A stretch of 64,000 bases of DNA, taken from Mobula hypostoma (Eukaryota). A program made the translations under genes and the position numbers. The notes below the pieces were generated by a model. The model did no database searches. It saw only the letters and a program-made list of their open reading frames with translations, and was not told the origin of the DNA. Positions 22,640 through 63,349 of the stretch are shown here, piece after piece (within the stretch, counting starts at the first letter, position 1; every line of letters starts with the position of its first letter). The stretch spans positions 50,470,001-50,534,000 of the forward strand of contig NC_086108.1 of NCBI RefSeq assembly GCF_963921235.1, read 5' to 3'.

Positions 22640-24180
22640 ACATCTGATGCCCTTATTAATCAAAAAATCAATCAACTGCTGCTTTAAATATATCCAATGA
22701 TGTGGCCTCCACAGCCGTCTGTGGTGATAAATTCCACAGATTCACCACCCTGACGAAAGAAATTCCTCTTCTTCTCTGTTCTAAAGAGACATTCTTCTAT
22801 TCTGAGGCCGTACCCTCTGGTCTTGTACTCTCAATATTGGAAACATCCTCTGCACATCCATTCTATCTAGGCTTATCAATATTCAGTACATTTCAATGAG
22901 ATCCCCCTTCATTCTCCTAAACTCCAGCAGGTACTGGCCTGGAAACATCAAACAGTCCTTATACATTAACCATTTCATTCTCAGGTCTTACCTTGGTCTG
23001 TCCTCCCAAAGTGAAAAACCTCACTTGTCTGCATTAAATTCCATCTGGCATTTTTTAGCCCATTTTCCCACCTGGTCCAGATCATGCTGCAAGCTTTGAT
23101 TACCTTCCTCACTGTCTATTATATTCCCAATCTTGTTGTTATCCTCAAATTTGCTGATCCACTTTATCACAATATCATCTAAATGATTAATACATGACAA
23201 ATAACAAACGACCCAGCAGTGATCCCTGTGGCACACCATTAGTCACAGAGACAACTATCTACTACCACTCTCCGGCTTCTCCCTCCAAGCCAAAGTTGAA
23301 TTCAATTGACTACTTCATCCTGAACGCCGTCGCCTAACCTTCTAAACCACGCAGGACTTTATCAAAGCCCTTGTTGAAGTTCATGTAGACAATGGACACC
23401 ATCTTTTCTTCATCAAACTTCTTGGTAACCTTCTTGTAAAACTCCGTAAGACTGGTTAGACTTGATGTACTCTACACAACACCATATTGGCTATACCTAA
23501 TAATGCTCTGTCTATCCAAATACTTGTGTGTTCCGTTCCTTAGAATACCTTCCAATAATTTACCCATGACCAGCATCAGACTCACCAGCCTAAAATTACC
23601 TGGCTTATTCTTAGAGCCATTCTTAAACAACAGAATATTAGCTATCCTCCACAAACAAGATAAAATCTGCAAATGCTGGAAATCTCCACAACACACACAA
23701 AATGCTGGAGGAGCTCAGCAAGCCAGGCGTCATCTATGGAAAAAAGTACAGTCGATGTTTCGGGCCGAAACCCTTCGCCAGGACTGGAGAAAAAAAGCTG
23801 AGGAGTAGATTTGAAAGGTAAGGGGAGGAGAGGGAGAAACGTCAAGCGACAGGTGAAACTTGGAGGGGGGGGGCGGGATAAAGCAAAGAGCTAGGAAGTT
23901 GACTGGTGACACAAAATGCTGGAGGAACTATCCTCCAGTCTTCTGGCACCTCGCCTGTGGCAAGGACATTTTAAATATCTTTGCCAGAACCCCTGCAATT
24001 TCTGCAAAAGCCTCCTGCAGGGTCTGAGGGGACAACTTGTCAGGCCCTGCAGATTTATCCATCCTAAACACCCTCAAGACAGCACGCAGATCATGACCTT
24101 GGTACTTTTTTGCCTGAGCAACTGAGACTCTGTGCCTGTCTCCTAAGTAAGTACTGATGCAAGAAATTCATTTAAGATCC
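22640..24180 (-). mobile_element. Decayed CR1 fragments with a PLE insertion
   Basis: SKFEDNNKIG...KWAKKCQMEFN; ANILLFKNGSKNKPGNFRLVSL. Confidence 0.75.
23652..23927 (-). mobile_element. PLE pLTR insertion
   Basis: TSD CTATCCTCCA (23642-23651 and 23928-23937); mutated hammerhead (CTGGCGA...GAAACATC). Confidence 0.85.
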
Positions 24181-25035
24181 CCATCCTTCCCCTTCTCTGG
24201 AACTTAAAGAACCCTGCTTTTCTTCCCCACTTTTCCCATTCCAATAGTACAGCATCAATCAAAAACATTATGTTTCTCTCTCCACCATTTATGTTGAGTA
24301 TCTCCAGCATTTTGTTTTTATTTCCGATTTCCAGCACCTCCTGCAGTTTCTTGCTTTTCTATTAGGTTTTATTAATCCAATTTGCTCTGAAACCGCATTA
24401 CATAAAAGGCCAAAATAATTCTCATTCTTGTCTTCACTGAGATCAATAGCTTCAAACAGAACCTCACGCATATAACCAGGCTGGCATGGAGTAGATGGGC
24501 AGAAAGGCCTGATTCTGTGCTGAAATGGTCTATGACTCTCTGTGCCCTTACTGCTTTGATCACGAAGTCTGTGTTTTTATCAAGCTTCAAAACCACTGCA
24601 GGCGGCTGCTGCTCATTATAGGATTTGCCAGTCTCTGTTGCTTTTAGCAGTTCAGCCACACTCCACGCTCAAGGAGAGGAGACCATCTACTTTTCCTTTA
24701 GTCCACAGGTACATGCAGAGCAGATTCAGGGATTTACTTGCATTGCACGAATACAGAAACTGTCCTTGTGCCTTAGCAAATACCTACCGACAAGTGCCTG
24801 ATTATAGCCCTGGAGGATCTCCCACAAAAAGAACATAGCTTCACTGGCCTCTGCTCTCCACTAGCCTGTTTAGTTTGATCTAACTTCCCAGGAAAACTCT
24901 CCAACATCTTTTGCTGTCAACAACTGCTATGTAATGGGATGAAGGTTATTTACATTTGGTACACCTTTTTAAAAAGGTACCTCCAGAGTTAGATGATGAC
25001 AACCATGAAAATTTGCATGTATATATGTATATATA

Positions 25036-25037
<2 letters not shown>

Positions 25038-25105
<68 letters not shown>

Positions 25106-25120
25106 TGTGTGTGTGTCTGT

Positions 25121-25154
<34 letters not shown>

Positions 25155-25194
25155 TTGTGTGTGTGTGTCTGTGTGTGTTTGTGTGTTTGTGTGT

Positions 25195-25289
<95 letters not shown>

Positions 25290-25295
25290 TGTGTG
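25038..25295. repeat. Long (TG)n microsatellite with TT/TC interruptions
   Basis: About 260 bp of TG dinucleotides. Confidence 0.99.
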
Positions 25296-25319
25296 CAAAA
25301 AAAGTGAGGCAAGAGTGGC

Positions 25320-27950
25320 ATTGAACCGCTGCAAAAATTACGCAGGAGAGGTAATAATGGGGGACAAAAATGACTGATGAACTTTATTTCGTGCTACTGT
25401 TCACTGTGGAAACACCAGCAGTATGCCAGAGGTTTAAGAGTGTCAGAGGGTAGAAATGAGTGCAGCTGCTATTACTACGGAGAAGATGCTTGGGAAACTA
25501 AAATGTCAGACGGTAGATAAGTCACCTGAACCAGATGGATCACACCCCACAGTTCTGACAGAGGTAGCTGAAGAGATTGTGGAAGCATTAGTGATGATCT
25601 TTGAAGAATCACTAAGTTCTGAAGGACTGGAAAATTGTAAATGTCACTCCATTCTTTAAGAAGGGAGAGAGGCAGAAGAAAGGAAATTATAGGCCAGTTA
25701 GCCTGACTTCCGTGGTTGGGGAGATGTTGGAGTCCATTATTAAGGATGAGATTTCAGGGTGCTTGGAGGCACATGATAAGGTAGGCCAAAGTCAGCATTG
25801 TTTCTGTAAGAGGAAATCTTACCTGACAAATCTGTTGGAATCCTTTGAGGAAATAACAAGCAAGATAGACAGAGAAGAGTTAGTAGATGTTGTTTACTTG
25901 GATTTTCAGAAGGCGTTTGACAAGGTGCTACCCATGAGGCTACTAATTGAAATATGAGCCCATGGTATTACAGGAAAGATACTAGCATGGATAGAAGATT
26001 GACTGACTGGCAGGAGACAGTGAGTTGGAATAAAGGTGGCCTTCATTTGTTGGTTGCCAGTGACTCATGATGTTCCACATGGGTCGGTGTTGAGACCATT
26101 CCTTTTTGAGTTATATGCCAATGATTTGGATGACAAAATTGATGGCTTTGTGATGAAGTTTTCAGACTATACAAAGGTAGATGGAAATGCAGGTCTTGTC
26201 TTGTCTTGTCTCCCTTTCTCTTCACCATTTACACTTCGGACTTCAAATACTACACAGAGTCTTGTCATCTTCAGGAGTTTTCTGATGACTCTGCCATAGC
26301 TGGATGCATCAGCAAGGGAGATGAGGCTGAGTACAGGGCTACGATAGGAAACTTTGTCACATGGTGTGAGAGAATTATCTGCAGCTTAATGTGAAAAAGA
26401 CTAAGGAGCTGGTGGTAGACCTGAGGAGGGCTAAGGCACCAGTGACCCCTGTTTCCATCCAGGGGGTTAGTGTGGACATGGTGGAGGATTACAAATACCT
26501 GGGGATACGAATTGACAATAAACTGGACTGGTCAAAGAACACTGAGGCTGTCTACAAGAAGGGTCAAAGCCGTCCCTATTTCCTGAGGAGACTGAGGTCC
26601 TTTAACATCTGTCAGACAATGCTGAGGATGTTCTACGAGTCTGTGGTGGCCAGTGCGATCATGTTTGCTGTTGTGTGCTGGGGCAGCAGGCTGAGGGTAG
26701 CAGACACCAATAGAATCAACAACCTCATTGGTAAGGCCAGTAATGTTGTGGGGATGGAACTGGACTCTCTGACGGTGGTGTCTGAAAAGAGGATGCTGTC
26801 GAAGTTGCATGCCATCTTGGACAATGTCTCCCATCCACTACATAATGGACTGGTTGGGCACAGAAGTACATTCAGCCAGAGACTCATTCCACCGAGATGC
26901 AACACAGAGAGTCACAGGAAGTCATTCCTGCCTGTGGCCATCAAACTTTACAACTCCTCCCTTGGAGGGTCAGACACCCTGAGCCAATAGGCTGGTTCTG
27001 GACTTATTTCCTGGCATAATTTACATATTATTATTTAATTATTTTTGGTTTTATCACTATTTAATTATTTAAGGTGCAACTGTAACAAAAACCAATTTCC
27101 GTTGGGATCAATAAAGTATGATTATGACTATGACTAGGTAGTGTTGAGGAAGCAGGGAATCTTCAGAAGTACTTAGACAAATTGGGAGAATGGGGAAAGA
27201 AAGGGCAGAAGGAATATAGTGTAGGGAAGTATATGGTCATACACATTGGTAGAAGGAATTAAGGTGTGGAAATAGGAAGGAAATTCAAAAATCTGAGGTG
27301 TAAAGGGACTTGGGAATCCTAGAGGTTAACTTGCAGACTGAGTTGGTATTAAAAAAGGCAAGTGCAGTGTGAACATTCATTTTGAGAGGACTAGAATACT
27401 AAAGAAAGGACATGATGCTGAGGCATTGGTCAGACCTAAGTTGAGTATTGTGAGACGTTTTGGGCCCCTTATCTCAGAAACGATGTGCTGGCATTGGAGA
27501 GGATCCAGAGGAGGTTCATGAGAATGATTCTGGGAAAGAAAGGAGCAATTGATGGTCCTGGGTCTGTACTTGCTGGAATTTAGAAGAATGAGGGGTAATC
27601 TGATCGAAACCTATCAAATAGATAGAGTGGATGTGGAAAGTAAGTTTTCTATAGTGGGTGCCTCTAGGACCAGAAGGCACAGCCTCAGAATAAAGGAACA
27701 TCCATTTAGAACAGAGATGAGGAGGAATTTCTTTAGCAGAGGGTAGTAGGATTCTTTCCTATGGGCAGTTGTGGAGGCTGGTCATGGCGTATATTTGAAG
27801 CAGAGGTTGATAGGTTGTTGATTAGTCAGGGCATCAAAGGTTACAGGGAGAAGGCAGGAAAATGAAGTTGACAGGAGTAATAAATCAGCCATAATGGCAG
27901 CCTAGACTCAATAGGCCAAGTGGCCTAATTCCACTCCTATATCTTGTGGT
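25320..27950 (+). mobile_element. Decayed CR1 RT and 3' end, interrupted by Rex1
   Basis: DKSPEPDGSHP, YLDFQKAFDKV, EFRRMRGNLIETY. Confidence 0.85.
26205..27135 (+). mobile_element. Rex1/Babar-clade LINE 3' end
   Basis: LSPFLFTIYTSD, FSDDSAI, KTKELVVDLRR, YKYLG, YFLRRLRSFNI; AATAAA followed by (TATGAC)n tail. Confidence 0.88.
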
Positions 27951-28655: not shown

Positions 28656-28901
28656 GTAACATCCCTTCTGGCTTCTTTAGCCCCCTTCATGTCTTGCTGT
28701 AACTTGCTATTTGACAAACTCCAAGATAGGACACTGCAATCACTTGCTGGCAACATTTTCACTAGAGGCAAAGCAATTTTAATCTAGATGACCAACTTTC
28801 TTTCTTCTTGATTGTGCAGATTTGTTCTGAGGGGTACTCTGCTTTCAGAGTGTGTGTCATAAAGGATGCTGATTAGGTTGCAACAGCAATGACATTTATA
28901 T

Positions 28902-28994
28902 CAAGCAACACACATAAAAATTGCTGGTGAACGCAGCAGGCCAGGCAACATCTATAGGAAGAGGTACAGTCGACATTTCGGGCCGAGAGCCTTC
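28902..28994 (-). mobile_element. Short PLE pLTR fragment
   Basis: Same sequence family as 29501, 54029 and 62195; flanked by TTTATAT. Confidence 0.8.
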
Positions 28995-29500
28995 ATTTAT
29001 ATGGTGTCTTTCAATGTAACAATGCCGTAGAAGTGCTATTTAATTGTTTACTGGGTGACATGGAGATTTTAGAACAGTGCTAAATAGCCCACTAACAATG
29101 CACCATGAAAGTCTGTGATGTGTACTTTAACAGAATTTGTTTGAAATGTTGTAGGATCAAAATTACTTGATTTTTTAAATTTACCAAAATTATCTAGTTC
29201 AGAGAAATTGCATTATTGTTCCCCTAAAGCATACAGCAGCTTAATACAAGGAGGAAAACAGTAAAAAAAATAGAAGCAGCTTAATTTATTTTTAACTAAA
29301 AGACCCAAAGTCTGCATTATAAATTTTAGCTTTGAATTTCCAACCCCTTTAGATTAATCCACCTTTTGGCCCACATTTTAATCAAAGCTAGTCAACTGAA
29401 AGGTGATGAAGTGTTAACTTGATAAATCATTCCCTTATGGAAACAGGAAAATAAGATGGCCCAATAAAAACATTCAAGATACTTCAAAAAATGATACAAC

Positions 29501-29645
29501 ATACATCAAAGTTGCTGGGGAACGCAGCAGGCCAAGCAGCATCTATAGGAAGAGGTGCAGTCGACGTTTCAGGCCGAGACCCTTCCAGCAACTTTGATGT
29601 ATGTTGCTTGAATTTCCAGCATCTGCGGAATTCCTGTTGTTTGCG
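29501..29645. mobile_element. Short fold-back PLE pLTR insertion
   Basis: 17-bp TSD TCAAAAAATGATACAAC (29484-29500 and 29646-29662); internal inverted duplication. Confidence 0.88.
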
Positions 29646-29963
29646 TCAAAAAATGATACAACTGCTTTGGATAGATGGCTTTAAACTAGAGAAAAAGAAT
29701 TCAAATTTACAAAGCTAGGAAAAATAAGGAAATTCATAGCTGGGATTACTGTCCAAGATGAGACGTGTGATAAATTTGGCGGAGAAGGACACTGAGACAG
29801 CCAGTTTGAAGATGGAAGGGATGGTGTATTTCTGGAGAAGGGCTTAAGTGAGTTGTGATATGAAGAGGAGATGGCTATCAGAGTTCGTCCAAGATTAAGA
29901 GAGGCACTTGTATGGCATGTTATACTTCTATAATTTTACATTTGGTTTTAAAATTTTACTTAC

Positions 29964-50252: not shown

Positions 50253-50334
50253 GTAGATCACCAAAAGTTCCTTTGGTCACATTTTTAGCTCGTAGAATGC
50301 ACACGATTAATCTATGAGAAACCTGATGTTCTAC
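50253..50334 (-). CDS. PLA2G4A: cPLA2-alpha coding exon (equivalent to human exon 3), start of C2 domain
   Basis: 82 nt, ttttag/GTAGAA...CTAC/gtaagt; translates VEHQVSHRLIVCILRAKNVTKGTFGDL(L), matching human [28 protein letters not shown]; ends in phase 1. Confidence 0.96.
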
Positions 50335-54028: not shown

Positions 54029-54274
54029 ACAACAGGAATTCTGCAGATGCTGGAAATTCAAGCAACACAAAGTTGCTGGTGAACGCAGCAGGCCAGGCAG
54101 CATCTCTAGGAAGAGGTACAGTCGACGTTTCAGGCCGAGACCCTTCGTCAGGACTAACTGAAGGAAGAGTTAGTAAGAGATTTGAAAGTGGGGGGGTGGG
54201 GAAGGGGGAGATCCAAAATGATAGGAGAAGACAGGAGGGGGAGGGATGGAGCCAAGAGCAACTTTGATGTGTGT
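54029..54274 (-). mobile_element. PLE pLTR insertion with intact hammerhead motif and short inverted tail
   Basis: 12-bp TSD TACCGTGCACAA (54017-54028 and 54275-54286). Confidence 0.88.
54119..54156 (-). ncRNA. Minimal type I hammerhead ribozyme motif
   Basis: TAGTC-CTGACGA-AGGGTCTCGGCCT-GAAA-CGTC-GACTG: helix I, CUGANGA core, stem II, GAAA, palindromic ACGT stem III, GUC site. Confidence 0.75.
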
Positions 54275-54884
54275 TACCGTGCACAATTCTGATTTGATGG
54301 AGAATGATGTGAGAAGCACAGAGGAGCATCTGGAGAAACTTCTGCAATGCCCGGTTCGCTGCTGCTGATACTGTGCGATCCAGCATCTCCGGAGGGAAGG
54401 CCCCAAAATCCCCGGCTTTGCCTGCTGCTGGTGACCGAGGCTGGGGTCGAAGCGTTTGGCAGAGATGGTGCTTGGTACTCGGTGTCGGAGGGTTGGTCGG
54501 AGGCTCGAAGTTATCGGACGACTCAGAGTCGGACTGTAGTTGGGTATGGCAGGGAGAGTTTTCTTCCTTCTCCCGTCTGCGTGAGATGTGGGACTTTTGA
54601 GAGACTTTGAACTTCTTTACTGTGCCATGGCCTGTTTGTCATCAAGTTATGGCATTGTTACACTGTTGTAACTATATGTTATAATTATGTGGTTTTTGTT
54701 AGTTTTTCAGTCTTGGTCTGTCCTGTGTTTCTGTGATATCACACCAGAGGAATATTGTATCATTTCTTAATGCATGCATTACTAAATGACAATAAAAGAG
54801 GACTACGTGTCCTCATAATCTAATTTAATCTACCATTGTAGGCCAAAGGGCCTGTTCCTGTGCTGTACTGTTCTATGTTCTATG

Positions 54885-56299: not shown

Positions 56300-57872
56300 C
56301 TAGACAATGGGGTGACCCGCTGGGGCACCCTTTGAGAGAAGGGTAGTGCAGTTTGATATGAGCAGAATGAACATTGAATTTTCCTGAATGCTATTGGTAT
56401 CGCTTTGCATTGGAAACTGAAGTAGAAAACCTCAGTTTATTAAAGAAGAATGGCGCATAGCAAAGCAAATATAGCTGCTCCTCATTTAACGAAGGACACT
56501 TTTGATAGCATCATTTCTGGTTTATCTGCCACCTTGTGCCTCTCGTTGTCATTCTGGAGACATGCAGTTCTTTCATCCCCCGTCTCTTCAGCTCTTCTGC
56601 TGTTTGTCTCTGATCCTGGAGATGTGCATGCCTCTCCTCCTCTGTCTCTTCCTCTCTCATCTTTTTTTTGTCCTGACTCTTTGATCCTGGAGTTGTGCGG
56701 CCCTGGCCTCACCTGATTCTTGTTCTCTCCCTCTCCTTGCCGCTTCCTGACGACGTTTCGCATCATCTCTTGACCATAATGTCCCCCTTCCCTCTCCACG
56801 CGGCATAATTAGGCTGGCCATTTTTTTTTACCCTAATGCTGGATAGAAGATACGAAGCACTAATTCCAAAGGATGCTGATTATTCTTGATGATGTGGCTG
56901 GCGCTCTCCTAAATGGATGTGATATAGTCACCGCTGTCCTTTGACTGCAGCAGAGGGTTTTATGGGTGTCTCGAAGTACGTCATTACAATAAGATTTAAT
57001 TATCTCTTATTGATGGGTGGCAGTTAGATCTGTCCCAATCCTGCACACGCTGATGGTGATTAGCAGAATGTGACCCCTCGAAATCCCTTCCCCTCCCTTC
57101 CCCCATCCCAGTTTCATTCTGCCCCCTCCCGCAGCTGCCTATCACCTCCCTCATGGTTCCACCTCCTTCTACCACCCATTGTGTTTTCCCCTATTCCTTC
57201 TTCACCTTTCCGGCCTATCCCCTCCCTGGCTCCCCTCCCCCACCCCTTTATCTTTCCCCTTACTGGTTTTTCATCTGGCACCTACCAGCCTTCTCCTTTC
57301 CACCCTCCCCCCACCTTCTTTATAGGGCCCCTGCCCCCTCCCTCTCCAGTCCTGACGAAGGGTTCCGGCCCAAAACGTTGACTGATCTTTTCCATGGATG
57401 CTGCCTGACCTGCTTGAGTTCCTCCAGTGTGTTGTGAGTGTTGCTTTGACCCCAGCATCTGCAGATTATTTTGTGCCCTCGAGATAGAGCTGCCCTGCCC
57501 TTCTGCTCCGGTAGGTGTAGCTGCTGAGGCAGGCCGCGTGCATGCGTCGTGGTGTGGCGTCGCAGTCTCCATAGAAGTTGGAGCCAACTCTGTCAGCATT
57601 GTGAGGCGCTGCCCAGGCTGGCCATGCACATACGTCGGGCTGTGGCATCCCAATTTCCATGATGGTCGATAGGGTCTCGGGTGAAAGGCAGCCTGTTGAT
57701 TTTTGGCAAATGAGCAATTTTATACGAATATATAACCCTGCACTTTGCCTGCATTCTGTAAGTTAGTGCATTTTAATTCGATGTAGCCAAAAAAAGTGCC
57801 GCTGTAATGTACGGTTTGCGCTAATCGGAAGTCACAAACAGACAGAGCAAGAGAATTTTAGTAGTATATAAA
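56300..57872 (-). mobile_element. Non-autonomous Helitron
   Basis: 5' end TTTATATACTACTAAAA (canonical TC appears as TT); 3' hairpin GGGTGCCCCAGCGGGTCACCC then CTAG; inserted between A and T with no TSD; remnant MPRG...ETEEERHAHLQDQR repeats. Confidence 0.82.
57082..57475 (+). mobile_element. PLE pLTR inside the Helitron
   Basis: Pyrimidine tract plus degenerate hammerhead (CTGACGA...AAAACGTT); flanked by CCCTCGA. Confidence 0.82.
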
Positions 57873-59325: not shown

Positions 59326-60037
59326 TAGTCATAGTCATACTTTATTGATCCCGAAGGAAAATGATTTTCATTACAGTTGCACCATAAATAATTAAATAGT
59401 AATATGTAAATTATGCCAGGAAATAAGTCCTGGACCACCTATTGGCTCAGGGTGTCTGACCCTCCAAGGAAGGAGTTGTAAAGTTTGATGGCCACAGGCA
59501 GGAATGACTTCCTATGACGCTCAGTGTTGCAACTTGGTGGAATGAGTCTCTGGCTGAATGTACTCCTGTGCCCAACCAGTACATTATGTAGTGGATGGGA
59601 GACATTGTCCAAGATGGCATGCAACTTAGACAGCATCCTCTTTTCAGACACCACCGTGAGAGAGTCCAGTTCCAACCCCACAACATCACTGGCCTTATCA
59701 ATGAGTTTGTTGATTCTGTTGGTGTCTGCTACCCTCAGCCTGCTGCCCCAGCACACAACAGCAAACATGATAGCACTGGCCACCACAGACTCATAGAATA
59801 TCTTCAGCATCATCCGACAGATGTTAAAGGATCTCAGTCTCCTCAGGAAATAGAGGTGGCTCTGACACTTCTTGTAGACAGCCTCAGTGTTCTTTGACCA
59901 GTCCAGTTTATTGTCAATTTGTATCCCCAGGTATTTGTAATCCTCCACCATGTCCACACTGACCCCCTGGATGGAAACAGGGGTCACCAGTGCCTTAGCC
60001 CTCCTCAGGTCTACCACCAGCTCCTTAGTCTTTTTAC
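59326..60037 (-). mobile_element. Rex1/Babar LINE 3' end, same subfamily as 26205-27135
   Basis: ORF 59439-60017 near identical to 26391-26990; (TATGAC)n tail. Confidence 0.9.
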
Positions 60038-62194
60038 AGATATAGGATGTTTAACTTCCAACATCTTCCTTTGCTTGAGGCACAAATCTGGCAGATGGAG
60101 AGTTATCACTTTGAGATCCTTTCTTTCTACTCCTGGATCCCATACTTGAACAAATGTTGATTGATGCCAAGGGCAGCCACTCATACTTCACCTCTAGAAT
60201 TCACTGCTCTGGTCCAGGCTTGGACCAAAGCTGTGCTGAGGCATAGGGAAATAGCAATCTTCAAGAAGATTGGATAAGTGCCAATAGTTGGAAATGTGTT
60301 GGAATAGCTTGGCCAGGGGTATGGCAAGTTCTGAAGCACAGGTCTTCTATACTGCAGATTGGACGTTTTCTTGTCCCATCGCTTTGCTGCACCTCACACA
60401 GTTGCTTTTTGAAATCATTAAATTTATTTGCATCCTTCACATTGCATTAAACTGGATTTGTACATGATACATATGGATAGAGAGCCAGACAGTGAATAGC
60501 CAAACAGTGTAACTTCAAACAGCATGCCATAAGACTCTTCTCATCACTAGTTCAAAATTCTTTCAAGTGACCAAGCCTCATGAATAGTACAAGAAACTCA
60601 CAAAGCAAAAGAATTGAAATCTACTTTAATGTTAATTAAAGAGACTCCAACTGAACAACTGCACTGCCATATTGTCCAAGGCATCCACTGTGCTGCAGCT
60701 AGGTCCTCCTTCAAGTCATTTCCTTCACCTTTGCTTGCACCCTCCTGTGCCCTAGCTGCCAGAAATCAGGGATGTTGCCATCGTGCACAGGCCACCAGTT
60801 AGTCACATGCTGGATTTATCCAGCCAACGTGTTCTTCCTACCAACATCCAATCTTCTGTCCAAACACAGCAGCACCACCATCCCCAAAAGGTTCAATATC
60901 CCCCGTCACAAGCCCTCAGCCCATTCACACAACTAAACCAACCCCTACCCTCATCACCCTACAATCAATTACAGGCCCAATCCAGGGAGTAGAAAAAAAC
61001 TTGGGACGATCAGGTAGCGCTTTGGACTCTTATGTGCAATTCAATTCAATGTTGTTGGGGACCTTGGAATTGTAACTGGTTTATTGTTATTACATACACT
61101 GAGGTATAGTGAAAAGCTTGTCTAGTGTACTGTTCATAAAGATCAATTCCTTACAAAGTACAAGATAAATCAATAACAATGCAAAATAAAGTGTAACAGC
61201 TACAGAGAAGGTGCAGTGCAGGTATACAATAAGTGCAAGATCATAACAAGGCAGATTGTGAGGTCAGAGTCCATTTTATCATACTAGGGAACCATTCAGT
61301 AGTCTTATCGCAGCAGGCTAGAAGCTGTCCTTGAGCCAGGTAGCATGTGCCATCAGGTATTTATATCTTCTGCTCAACAGGAAAGGGAAGAAAAGAAAGT
61401 GTCCAGAGTGGGTGGGGTCTTTGATTTTGCTGGCTGTTTTACTGAAGCAGAAAGCATAAACAGAGTCTATGGAAGGGAAGCCGGCTTATACGATGATATG
61501 CATGTCCACAACTCTTTGCCAGATCTATGCTACCTTTATGCACCTTCTCCGGCATGTTGAGTGATGGTACAGCATGTGTTGTCTACTGAGAACTACAGTG
61601 TGGATTCTCATCAGTGGGTTCACATTTGGACGTTCCAGTGTCAGGAACCTGGAAAGTAATGCAACTTCAAAAAGTAGTTACATAAATCTGACATACAATA
61701 GTGCACAGATAATGTGTTGCAGCTGCAACATGTGGGAGCTCACGGAAACCACTGTGACAACAAGATTGGCTAAGTGCCGGTAGTTAGAAATGTATTGCAA
61801 AAGCAGCTGAAGGGACTTGGGCCAAATGAGCTGGAATCTGAGATTCAGACAGTCCCAGGAATCATGGAGGGGATTAAAGTTTTCTCCAAGAGACAGCCAC
61901 ATCCCTTGAATTAAGATCTGCATGATTGGTCAGTCAAGAGGGAAAAGAAAGGAATGGAGGTTGAACATAAAACGTAGAAATTTACAGCACATTACAGGCC
62001 CTTCGGCCCACAATGTTGTGCCAACCATGTAACCTACTATAGAGACTGCCTAGAATTTCCCTAGTGCATAGCCCTCTATTTTTCTAAGCTCCATGTACCT
62101 ATCTAAGAGGGTCTTAAAATACTCTATTGAAGCTGTGGACTCTATAGAGATAACTTTGTACAAGAGTATAAAGAGGAAACAAGTGTCCAGGCAA

Positions 62195-62438
62195 ACAACA
62201 GGAATTCTGCAGATGCTGGAAATTCAAGCAACACACATCAAAGTTGCTGGTGAACGCAGCAGGCCAGGCAGCATCTCTAGGAAGAGGTACAGTCGACGTT
62301 TCAGGCTGAGACCCTTCGTCAGGACTAACGAAGTCTGAGTCCTGACGAAGGGTCTCGGCCTGAAACGTCGACTGTACCTCTTCCTGGAAATGCTGCCTGG
62401 CCTGCTGCATTCACCAGCAACTTTGATGTGTGTTGCTT
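62195..62438. mobile_element. Palindromic PLE pLTR insertion
   Basis: 101-bp inverted arms 62226-62326 and 62338-62438, 11-nt spacer; 14-bp TSD AAGTGTCCAGGCAA (62181-62194 and 62439-62452). Confidence 0.92.
62338..62373 (+). ncRNA. Minimal hammerhead ribozyme motif (mirror copy on the minus strand at about 62291-62326)
   Basis: AGTC-CTGACGA-AGGGTCTCGGCCT-GAAA-CGTC-GACT. Confidence 0.75.
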
Positions 62439-63349
62439 AAGTGTCCAGGCAATTTTTTTTTCCAGATCTAACACTGGACAAAGAAAAAAATCATCATGTC
62501 ATGCAACATCTGTTGAGGCAAAGGGATGGTCAATGAGAGATTTTATTAATAATCTAGTAGTTAAATAGCATTTAGGGAAAAATTATACTGATAGGATAAT
62601 CTTTTTGTAAAAGGAATAAAAACCATTTCATTCAAGCTAGAATCAGGATCTTAACATCTAGACAAAATAATCCATGTAGTTATGAAATGTTAGTTGGCTG
62701 TGGAGGGTTGGGGAAATAATTTAAAAGAGTTGACAGTAAACAAGTATAACTAGTACTTACACACACTTTGCTGCAAATGTATTTCTTTCTAAGGCACAAA
62801 CAAAAAAAATCAATAGGAAATGGCTTATCACCAAAGTGCACAAAGCCTGAAGATTGTCAGGCTCCAGCAAAGGAGGACCAGAAAATTGTTAAGGGTAATT
62901 CCAGCCAAAAGCAAAACGGTAAAAGATTGCATAAGTCTGCAAAAAGAAACACAAATGTAAAAGTTAACCTGAGTGCCATAAAGACAGAGACTGGAGTGAC
63001 ACCCTAATAGCAAATAAGTTAAACAAATATCTTCTGCCTTCATGAAGGAGATATATAATAATCAAGTACAGGGAAAGAAAGTACACTGGCAAAACTCGGT
63101 CACTGAGCGCATGACTCAATCTCCACCCAGAGAGGGCAGCAGCATAGCTACGTGTGTCACAGGGCTCCAAACCCCACTCACATTTCCCTGCTAATGGTAT
63201 GTAGTTTGATCTTGGTTTAAAAAAAGATAAAATTTTGTTCAGCTCATTCATCCTATGACTATCTCTGGCAGACGAGCATGGACCTTTTTGAACAAGAACT
63301 ACTATTCAATTTACTAGATGAAAAGATAGTGAAACCAGTTTTAGTCACG

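What the first reader, a model, noticed from the sequence alone, without database searches (positions are those of the whole stretch)
62181..62452. Fold-back Penelope-derived mini-element with a hammerhead ribozyme motif on each strand
Seen: a 244-bp insert between 14-bp TSDs, made almost entirely of two 101-bp inverted copies of a PLE terminal repeat around an 11-nt spacer, with only a few mismatches. Each arm holds helix I (AGTC/GACT), CTGACGA, stem II, GAAA and a loopless palindromic ACGT stem III with a GUC site. Known: PLE terminal repeats carry minimal hammerheads thought to act as dimers. Inference: a transcript from either strand contains one ribozyme plus its full antisense, giving a self-masking hairpin and a ~100-bp dsRNA (ADAR/Dicer substrate) at the PLA2G4A locus. 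It could be a non-autonomous mobile RNA unit or a one-off integration product.
Basis: partly seen in the sequence, partly recalled or inferred. Interest (0 to 1): 0.72.

Follow-up and report, generated by a model that had tools for sequence, protein, structure and literature searches.

The report
Penelope hairpin stub made at insertion
This 244-base mirror-image insert is one of thousands of stubs of a very abundant Penelope-type jumping gene in a cartilaginous fish, likely built on the spot from two short DNA copies of the element's RNA joined head to head rather than being a mobile ribozyme unit of its own.

Summary
In detail: 244-bp insert, 14-bp TSD, 101-bp inverted arms (4 mismatches), 11-nt spacer, a minimal hammerhead motif in each arm. 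The parent is an RT + GIY-YIG Penelope-like element (Neptune/Nematis-type linker) with at least 15,538 young ends. The focal junction is unique in the genome; 42 of 90 unbiased insertions carry an adjacent inverted arm with their own junction, either arm can be the longer, and even a recurring junction has the tail on either side, so this is an insertion product, not a mobile mini-element. Inverted pLTR plus tail, and opposite-strand hammerhead pairs, are published. Not found in my paper searches: 64 of 181 arms end within 15 nt at the hammerhead's 5' edge (about 8-fold excess), also in non-inverted insertions; the predicted cut site shows only a weaker excess. Best reading: both target ends prime cDNA at two fixed RNA sites and run off at a likely RNA 5' end; an overlapping hairpin is a rival cause. 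Ribozyme activity and dsRNA processing are untested. The scan has reported this before in this and at least 16 genomes.

The parts
62181..62194 (+). Left copy of the 14-bp target-site duplication; its last 4 bases also match the element's tail, so the boundary is ambiguous by 4 nt
   Evidence: comparison with the full-length copy L181
62195..62225 (-). One-sided 31-nt PLE 'tail': sequence between the two outer end sites (+100 and +131/135, counting A of AGTCC as 0)
   Evidence: described for PLEs in PMC8557442, PMC3846280, PMC11167929
62195..62329 (-). Tail-bearing arm: element positions +131 to -3, a short 5'-truncated pLTR copy (inferred first cDNA)
62291..62326 (-). Minimal hammerhead motif, left arm (predicted cut between 62295 and 62294)
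   Evidence: activity untested
62330..62337 (.). 8-nt junction filler unique to this copy: locally templated (GA from the recurring ACGAAG junction plus a near-duplicate of the right arm's first 7 nt, one C short)
   Evidence: templating is my reading of the letters
62338..62438 (+). Inverted, tail-less arm: element positions 0 to +100 (inferred second cDNA, primed from the other target end)
62338..62373 (+). Minimal hammerhead motif, right arm (predicted cut between 62369 and 62370); its 5' edge is the family's truncation hotspot
62439..62452 (+). Right copy of the 14-bp target-site duplication
54029..54276 (.). Sister insertion of the same family: long tail arm (about 230 nt) plus a very short inverted arm, own TSD
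29497..29646 (.). Sister insertion in the opposite orientation: 89-nt inverted arm plus a 56-nt tail arm, own TSD

Best explanation
The insert is a short insertion of an abundant endonuclease-bearing Penelope-like element, likely made when both cut ends of the target DNA primed reverse transcription at two fixed sites about 35 nt apart on the element's RNA and the two roughly 100-135-nt cDNAs were joined head to head. Shown: parent element, tail asymmetry, 13-15-bp TSDs, two outer end sites (+133 and about +97), copy-specific junctions, independent arm lengths, and a strong pile-up of inner ends at the hammerhead's 5' edge. Inferred: the endonuclease makes a staggered cut; each 3' OH primes cDNA (top strand at the tail site, bottom strand at the inner site); both usually copy the same RNA or the same subfamily; both often stop at the same place, most likely because the RNA begins there (an initiator-like motif lies at -4 and 0), so the polymerase runs off; the ends are then joined through 1-4-nt microhomology with short templated fill-in. 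The hammerheads are passengers from the parent's pLTR; in this hairpin each is predicted to be locked by its full antisense and the unit is likely a dead end.
For: Parent: L181 holds pLTR-ORF-pLTR, 1043-codon frame with RT, CX4CxxC linker and GIY-YIG; the ORF starts just past the tail; closest named relatives are shark proteins, 64-67%. Abundance: 15,538 exact 52-nt tail ends. Junction unique: 1 match; the 30 most similar copies have their own TSDs and many different spacers. In 90 consecutive tail-bearing insertions from contig C1, 42 have an adjacent inverted arm; the inverted arm reaches at least 10 nt further 5' than the tail arm in 16 and the tail arm further in 10, which a copy-back of one strand cannot give in both directions. 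A recurring junction (377 genome matches; 21 of 30 examined continue alike) has the tail on the left in 13, on the right in 7, undetected in 1, in 6 subfamily types. Outer ends cluster at +131..+135 (47 of 54) and +96..+100 (19 of 28); TSDs are 13-15 bp in 44 of 54. Paired arms share the subfamily type in 46 of 62 pairs against 14.4 by shuffling (max 26 of 5000). Hotspot: 64 of 181 arms end at -5..+9, 0.037 per nt against 0.0047 in the flanks; 20 of 44 non-inverted insertions with a TSD end there too; genome-wide 2,811 copies have a non-T base before position 0 against 30,836 with T, and 29 of 30 checked are true truncations. In vitro, an anole PLE cuts and extends both strands and starts at two RNA sites bounding the tail (PMC11167929).
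Against: For this one copy the inverted arm (0) lies within the reach of the tail arm (-3) and the ACGAAG filler fits a snap-back, so copy-back is not excluded here. The cause of the hotspot is not shown: no raw RNA reads were available; the upstream edge is not sharp (0.016 per nt at -15..-6, 0.006 at -30..-16); no overall G excess before position 0 as a cap would give (31 G, 34 A, 35 C in the first 100 hits); a hairpin whose loop covers -2..+3 is predicted in the longer RNA; and related families keep a polypyrimidine-YAG motif like a 3' splice site exactly here. The -5..+9 window was chosen after seeing the data, end calls carry some errors (e.g. L128), and the samples come from the start of contig C1 only. 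High arm concordance also fits copy-back or gene conversion.
Confidence: 0.78

Rival explanations
1. Self-primed copy-back: one cDNA (or an antisense template, as proposed for rotifer Penelope) folds on itself at the imperfect palindrome around the hammerhead's 5' edge and copies itself to make the second arm.
For: Proposed in PMC3846280 (passages). The tail arm's 3' end at -3 can pair back and extend as GAAG, the start of the focal filler; 377 copies share that junction start; arms usually share the subfamily type (46 of 62).
Against: Inverted arm longer than the tail arm in 16 of 42; same recurring junction with the tail on either side (13 vs 7); a few adjacent arms differ at two diagnostic sites (L008, L028, L056); the inverted arm's outer end is fixed near +97, matching a second priming site rather than a random stop.
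Confidence: 0.13
2. A non-autonomous fold-back mini-element (retrozyme- or MITE-like) that is itself transcribed and re-mobilised as a unit.
For: At least 40 full-length look-alikes at 91-95% identity with their own TSDs; some junctions recur hundreds of times.
Against: Focal junction is unique; continuous range of arm lengths from about 60 nt to over 2 kb; recurring junction occurs in both polarities and 6 subfamily types; a transcript would be a -216 kcal/mol duplex.
Confidence: 0.04
3. Twin priming is right but the inner ends are set by RNA or cDNA structure or processing (the hairpin with its loop at -2..+3, a protein bound at the polypyrimidine-YAG motif, or splicing) and not by a transcription start. 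This differs from the best explanation only in the cause of the hotspot; I put about 45% of that question here.
For: Predicted hairpin loop coincides with the mode at 0/+1; conserved (Y)n-YAG-TCC in related families; in D. virilis an intron ends at the 5' end of helix I (PMC4209133); soft upstream edge.
Against: None of 151 truncated copies has 10 or more nt of other element sequence joined in sense before the site, as a spliced template would leave; a structural block would be expected at the hairpin's 3' base (+13), not its loop (inference); short duplications that restart at position 0 or -3 (focal copy, L009, L021) fit run-off at a template end.
Confidence: 0.35
4. Assembly or library fold-back artefact.
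For: Perfect-looking palindromes are a known artefact class (recalled); no long reads were available to check.
Against: 14-bp TSD, 4 arm mismatches, one-sided tail and templated filler; dozens of independent loci with the same anatomy and their own TSDs; similar joints into positions 0..+4 in contigs of other organisms (table 5).
Confidence: 0.01

Closest known systems
Inverted-pLTR insertions of EN+ Penelope-like elements with a one-sided 30-40-bp tail (PMC8557442 and PMC3846280, passages read; PMC8969392, passages)
   Same: Adjacent inverted 5'-truncated copy, head-to-head, tail at one end only, whole unit flanked by a TSD, palindrome at the junction.
   Different: Here both halves are minimal (about 100-135 nt) with no ORF; the papers explain the inversion by self-priming or endonuclease resolution and report no pile-up of inner ends at the hammerhead's 5' edge in the passages I saw.
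[quoted passage not shown]
   Same: Short helix I, extra base between 9 and 10.1, no helix III loop, palindromic 15.2-16.2; that paper also notes dual min-HHRs 100-700 bp apart on opposite strands in Schistosoma.
   Different: The focal family mostly has U at 11.1 (149 of 169 copies), losing the G10.1-C11.1 pair; the two motifs here are about 10 nt apart at their 5' edges and fully complementary.
PAc (Poseidon, Anolis) in vitro mechanism (Frangieh et al. 2024, PMC11167929, main text read)
   Same: Both target strands cut and extended; two internal RT start sites bounding the tail, near the ORF start; hammerhead not needed for insertion.
   Different: Different clade (no CX2-5CxxC linker); that work did not describe joining of two cDNAs or a 5' stop hotspot; here the outer ends overlap the TSD by 1-3 nt in over half of the cases (31 of 54 and 15 of 28; no chance control run), whereas PAc initiation was called non-homologous.
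L1 twin priming (Ostertag and Kazazian 2001; recalled, not read)
   Same: Second target end primes on the same RNA, giving an inverted 5' segment inside a TSD.
   Different: L1's second primer anneals at scattered internal sites so the two segments do not overlap; here the second site is fixed about 35 nt from the first, so the same stretch is copied twice and a palindrome results.
Retrozymes (non-autonomous hammerhead retroelements; seen only in search listings)
   Same: Small, non-coding, hammerhead-bearing, TSD-flanked.
   Different: Retrozymes have same-strand tandem hammerheads and propagate as units through circular RNA; here the motifs are on opposite strands and the unit does not recur.

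Membership tests
EN+ Penelope-like element (parent) | Single ORF with RT followed by C-terminal GIY-YIG endonuclease | tested here: met
   L181 and L131: RVT_1 (E 9e-5) and GIY-YIG (E 6e-4), both below Pfam's curated cut-offs; 772 relatives with the same domain set
EN+ Penelope-like element (parent) | Partial-tandem pLTR-ORF-pLTR structure | tested here: met
   L181: the same pLTR precedes and follows the ORF
Neptune/Nematis clades | CX2-5CxxC zinc-finger linker between RT and EN | tested here: met
   CX4CxxC motif in P0001; definition in PMC8557442
Neptune clade (as against Nematis) | RT phylogeny | not tested
   No named reference proteins were on hand; no tree built
PLE inverted-pLTR insertion | Adjacent inverted 5'-truncated copy, 30-40-bp tail on one side, flanking TSD | tested here: met
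   31-35-nt tail, 101-bp inverted arm, 14-bp TSD
Minimal hammerhead of PLEs | CUGANGA and GAAA cores, helix I, bulged base before helix II, palindromic helix III, NUH site | tested here: met
   Present in both arms
Minimal hammerhead of PLEs | G10.1-C11.1 pair closing helix II | tested here: not met
   Both focal arms have U at 11.1; 149 U, 19 C, 1 A in 169 copies; related families mostly keep C
Minimal hammerhead of PLEs | Self-cleavage as a dimer | not testable with these tools
   Dimeric hammerhead fold scores -10.9 kcal/mol against -29.7 for the best dimer fold; genomic ends at the cut site show only a modest excess
Non-autonomous mobile family (retrozyme/MITE-like) | Dispersed copies share one internal structure and junction | tested here: not met
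   Junction unique; recurring junctions occur in both polarities and several subfamilies
ADAR/Dicer substrate in a host transcript | Transcribed, edited or diced in vivo | not testable with these tools
   Only contigs of other organisms were served; flanks of the locus not covered

The most novel reading that the evidence does not exclude
These hairpins are paired 'strong-stop' cDNAs: a dimeric Penelope RT primes from both target ends on the 5' leader of its own RNA, runs off a transcription start at the hammerhead's first base, sometimes slips back and re-copies the last few bases as telomerase does, and a minority of templates are hammerhead-cleaved RNA (ends at the cut site about 4-fold above the neighbouring base). 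The genome would then hold a record, in thousands of copies, of the element's start site, its two priming sites and in vivo ribozyme cleavage.
Probability: 0.3. Interest if true: 0.62.

Novelty: new member of a known kind. Interest (0 to 1): 0.35.

Why it matters
As a sequence feature it is ordinary: a published PLE insertion shape in miniature. Its value is as population evidence on an open question, how Penelope-like elements integrate and why they leave inverted pLTRs and tails. The copies favour two separately primed cDNAs over self-priming and point to a precise RNA position (the hammerhead's 5' edge) that can be tested by 5' RACE and with the existing in vitro PLE system. A side consequence, untested, is that a few thousand near-perfect 100-bp hairpins lie in this genome, many presumably in introns.

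Tried and rejected
Rfam scan: no hammerhead family matched, only sub-threshold miRNA hairpins. Cap signature: no G excess before position 0 in 100 listed hits; in 9 simple insertions without microhomology 6 had G (by eye), too few to use. Spliced-template idea: 0 of 151 truncated copies show a sense join of 10 nt or more from elsewhere in the element. Cleavage-site footprint: 1,029 matches with a purine before +32 against 381 before +31, but by eye 16 of 30 and 13 of 20 are point mutations and 2 each are internal deletions; 12 of 30 and 5 of 20 are real junctions (about 410 against 95), half of the 12 have 3-4-nt microhomology and none is a simple TSD-flanked insertion: suggestive only. Expression: no RNA holder listed; the laid runs are contigs of other organisms and cannot show starts, strand or editing; they do not cover the flanks, so no empty site was seen. 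No solved structure of a relative. The cPLA2 ATG exon was not located in 44 kb upstream of the first exon found. A first end-calling rule stopped at subfamily polymorphisms and was replaced; the replacement moves +32 ends to +39 or +50, so +32 is read. Nine of 100 arm-based loci were dropped because they carried the tail; four spurious inverted hits (L039, L045, L127, L160) were removed from the 46.

Full report
Observation. Below, positions count from the A of AGTCC, the first base of helix I (0); the predicted cut lies between +31 and +32. The left arm covers +131 (or +135, four bases being shared with the TSD) to -3, the right arm 0 to +100. The four arm mismatches are all transitions and each is a change in one arm away from the common type, about 2% per arm.

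Setting. The host is a cartilaginous fish, likely a ray: a window exon is 93-96% identical to sawfish and electric-ray cPLA2 and matches solved cPLA2 C2 domains. Exons lie on the - strand at 50334, 30843, 30080 and 344 and continue left of the window. The 11-codon ATG exon seen in relatives was not found up to 30 kb past the window end, so the insert is likely in a long early intron; not shown.

Parent element. The 244-bp query finds 40 of 40 scored candidates as full-length look-alikes among 1,055, and a 52-nt tail probe has 15,538 exact matches. Long copies lead to L181, a pLTR-ORF-pLTR unit with a 1043-codon frame: RT, CX4CxxC linker, GIY-YIG, i.e. Neptune/Nematis type by the definition in PMC8557442. 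The ORF begins just beyond the tail, as in the anole element (PMC11167929).

Mobile unit or insertion product? The focal junction occurs once. The 30 closest copies have their own TSDs and many spacers (this set is biased toward the query's spacer). In 90 consecutive tail-bearing insertions (the first 90 of 15,538, contig C1), 42 have an adjacent inverted arm, 19 have both arms ending in -30..+10, and 14 of those have a full-length second arm like the focal copy, which scales to roughly 2,400 young copies. Arm lengths are independent: inverted arm longer by 10 nt or more in 16, tail arm longer in 10. One junction does recur (377 matches to its first half; 21 of 30 continue alike), but with the tail on the left in 13, the right in 7 and undetected in 1, across six subfamily types: repeated independent formation through microhomology, not a master copy. 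Outer ends are fixed at +131..+135 (47 of 54) and +96..+100 (19 of 28), TSDs are 13-15 bp in 44 of 54. Paired arms share subfamily type in 46 of 62 (shuffled mean 14.4); most of the 16 discordant pairs differ at one site or are alignment artefacts of short arms, a few at two sites, so usually one RNA or one source, sometimes perhaps two.

The inner ends. 64 of 181 arms (90 tail arms, 91 tail-less arms) end at -5..+9, mode 0/+1: 0.037 per base against 0.0047 in flanking bins, 7.8-fold (window chosen after seeing the data). It is not a by-product of inversion: 20 of 44 non-inverted insertions with a TSD end there. Genome-wide, 2,811 of 33,647 exact 33-nt hammerhead copies lack the normal base at -1 and 29 of 30 inspected are truncations. 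Contigs of other organisms show joints into the same bases (a selected list). The hammerhead cut site is a much weaker signal: about 410 junctions at +32 against about 95 at +31 after removing point mutations by eye, half with microhomology. Causes for the hotspot: an RNA 5' end (initiator-like motifs at -4 and 0, consensus recalled; short duplications restarting at 0 or -3, including the focal filler); a predicted hairpin with its loop at -2..+3; or a conserved splice-acceptor-like motif (an intron ends here in D. virilis, PMC4209133), though no spliced junction was found in 151 truncated copies. No overall cap-G excess and a soft upstream edge weaken the first. I put it at about 55:45 for the RNA end.

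Ribozyme. Motif features are met except G10.1-C11.1 (U in 149 of 169 copies). The monomer prefers a rod that pairs the core and the dimeric hammerhead fold is 19 kcal/mol above the best dimer fold. Published min-HHRs are weak or need protein (PMC4209133, PMC11167929). Because the arms are head to head, either transcript makes the antisense arm first, so masking is predicted. No data on editing or small RNAs were available.

Comparison with print. Inverted 5'-truncated copy, tail and TSD: PMC8557442, PMC3846280, PMC8969392 (passages). Opposite-strand hammerhead pairs: PMC4209133. Two-strand extension and two start sites: PMC11167929 (parts 1-2 of 4). Self-priming model: PMC3846280. Six searches listed no paper applying twin priming to PLEs or describing a truncation hotspot at the hammerhead edge; the three papers holding both 'twin priming' and 'Penelope' were seen as listings only, subscription papers (Arkhipova 2006; Evgen'ev and Arkhipova 2005; Schostak 2008) are not in the library, and no supplements were opened, so absence from print is weakly shown.

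Earlier notes. I recorded the twin-priming and hotspot reading before the first look-up. The scan holds 37 matching notes in at least 16 genomes and several in this genome with the same conclusion; they are AI notes and add no evidence, but this locus adds nothing beyond them.

Verdict. Real, known in shape, not a new mobile element; of moderate interest as population evidence on PLE integration. Interest 0.35.

Noticed in passing
window 54029-54276, 29497-29646, 28901-28994: Three more insertions of the same family with different arm lengths; the first two have short inverted arms and their own TSDs.
   Followed up: partly
window 23655-23830 and 57348-57465: Copies of two related, older PLE families (76-78% identical) whose similarity begins at the same polypyrimidine-YAG-TCC boundary.
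   Followed up: partly
L309, L310, L311: Three independent insertions share one junction: tail arm ending at +1, one extra base, then the inverted arm starting exactly at the predicted hammerhead cut (+32).
   Followed up: partly
L201-L230 and L001-L030: TG is the commonest pair of bases just before position 0 in truncated copies (TGAG in 17 of 60 AG-ended copies; sample biased); could be end re-copying, a cap-derived G or a tiny first exon.
   Followed up: partly
L131 (G000:C1:5525700-5530426): A 4.4-kb head-to-head insertion with arms of about 2.3 and 2.1 kb, the large end of the same series.
   Followed up: partly
L181:3920-3940: The upstream pLTR of the near-full-length copy is itself preceded by a roughly 20-nt inverted stub of the element's end.
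   Followed up: no
window 61964-62139: Another abundant repeat (very high depth in the laid contigs) sits just left of the insert; probably a LINE or SINE 3' end.
   Followed up: no
window 24958-25347: About 390 bp of short-period tandem repeat.
   Followed up: no
window 26394-26991 and 59438-60035: Two 598-bp copies of a repeat, 95% alike, in opposite orientation 32 kb apart.
   Followed up: no
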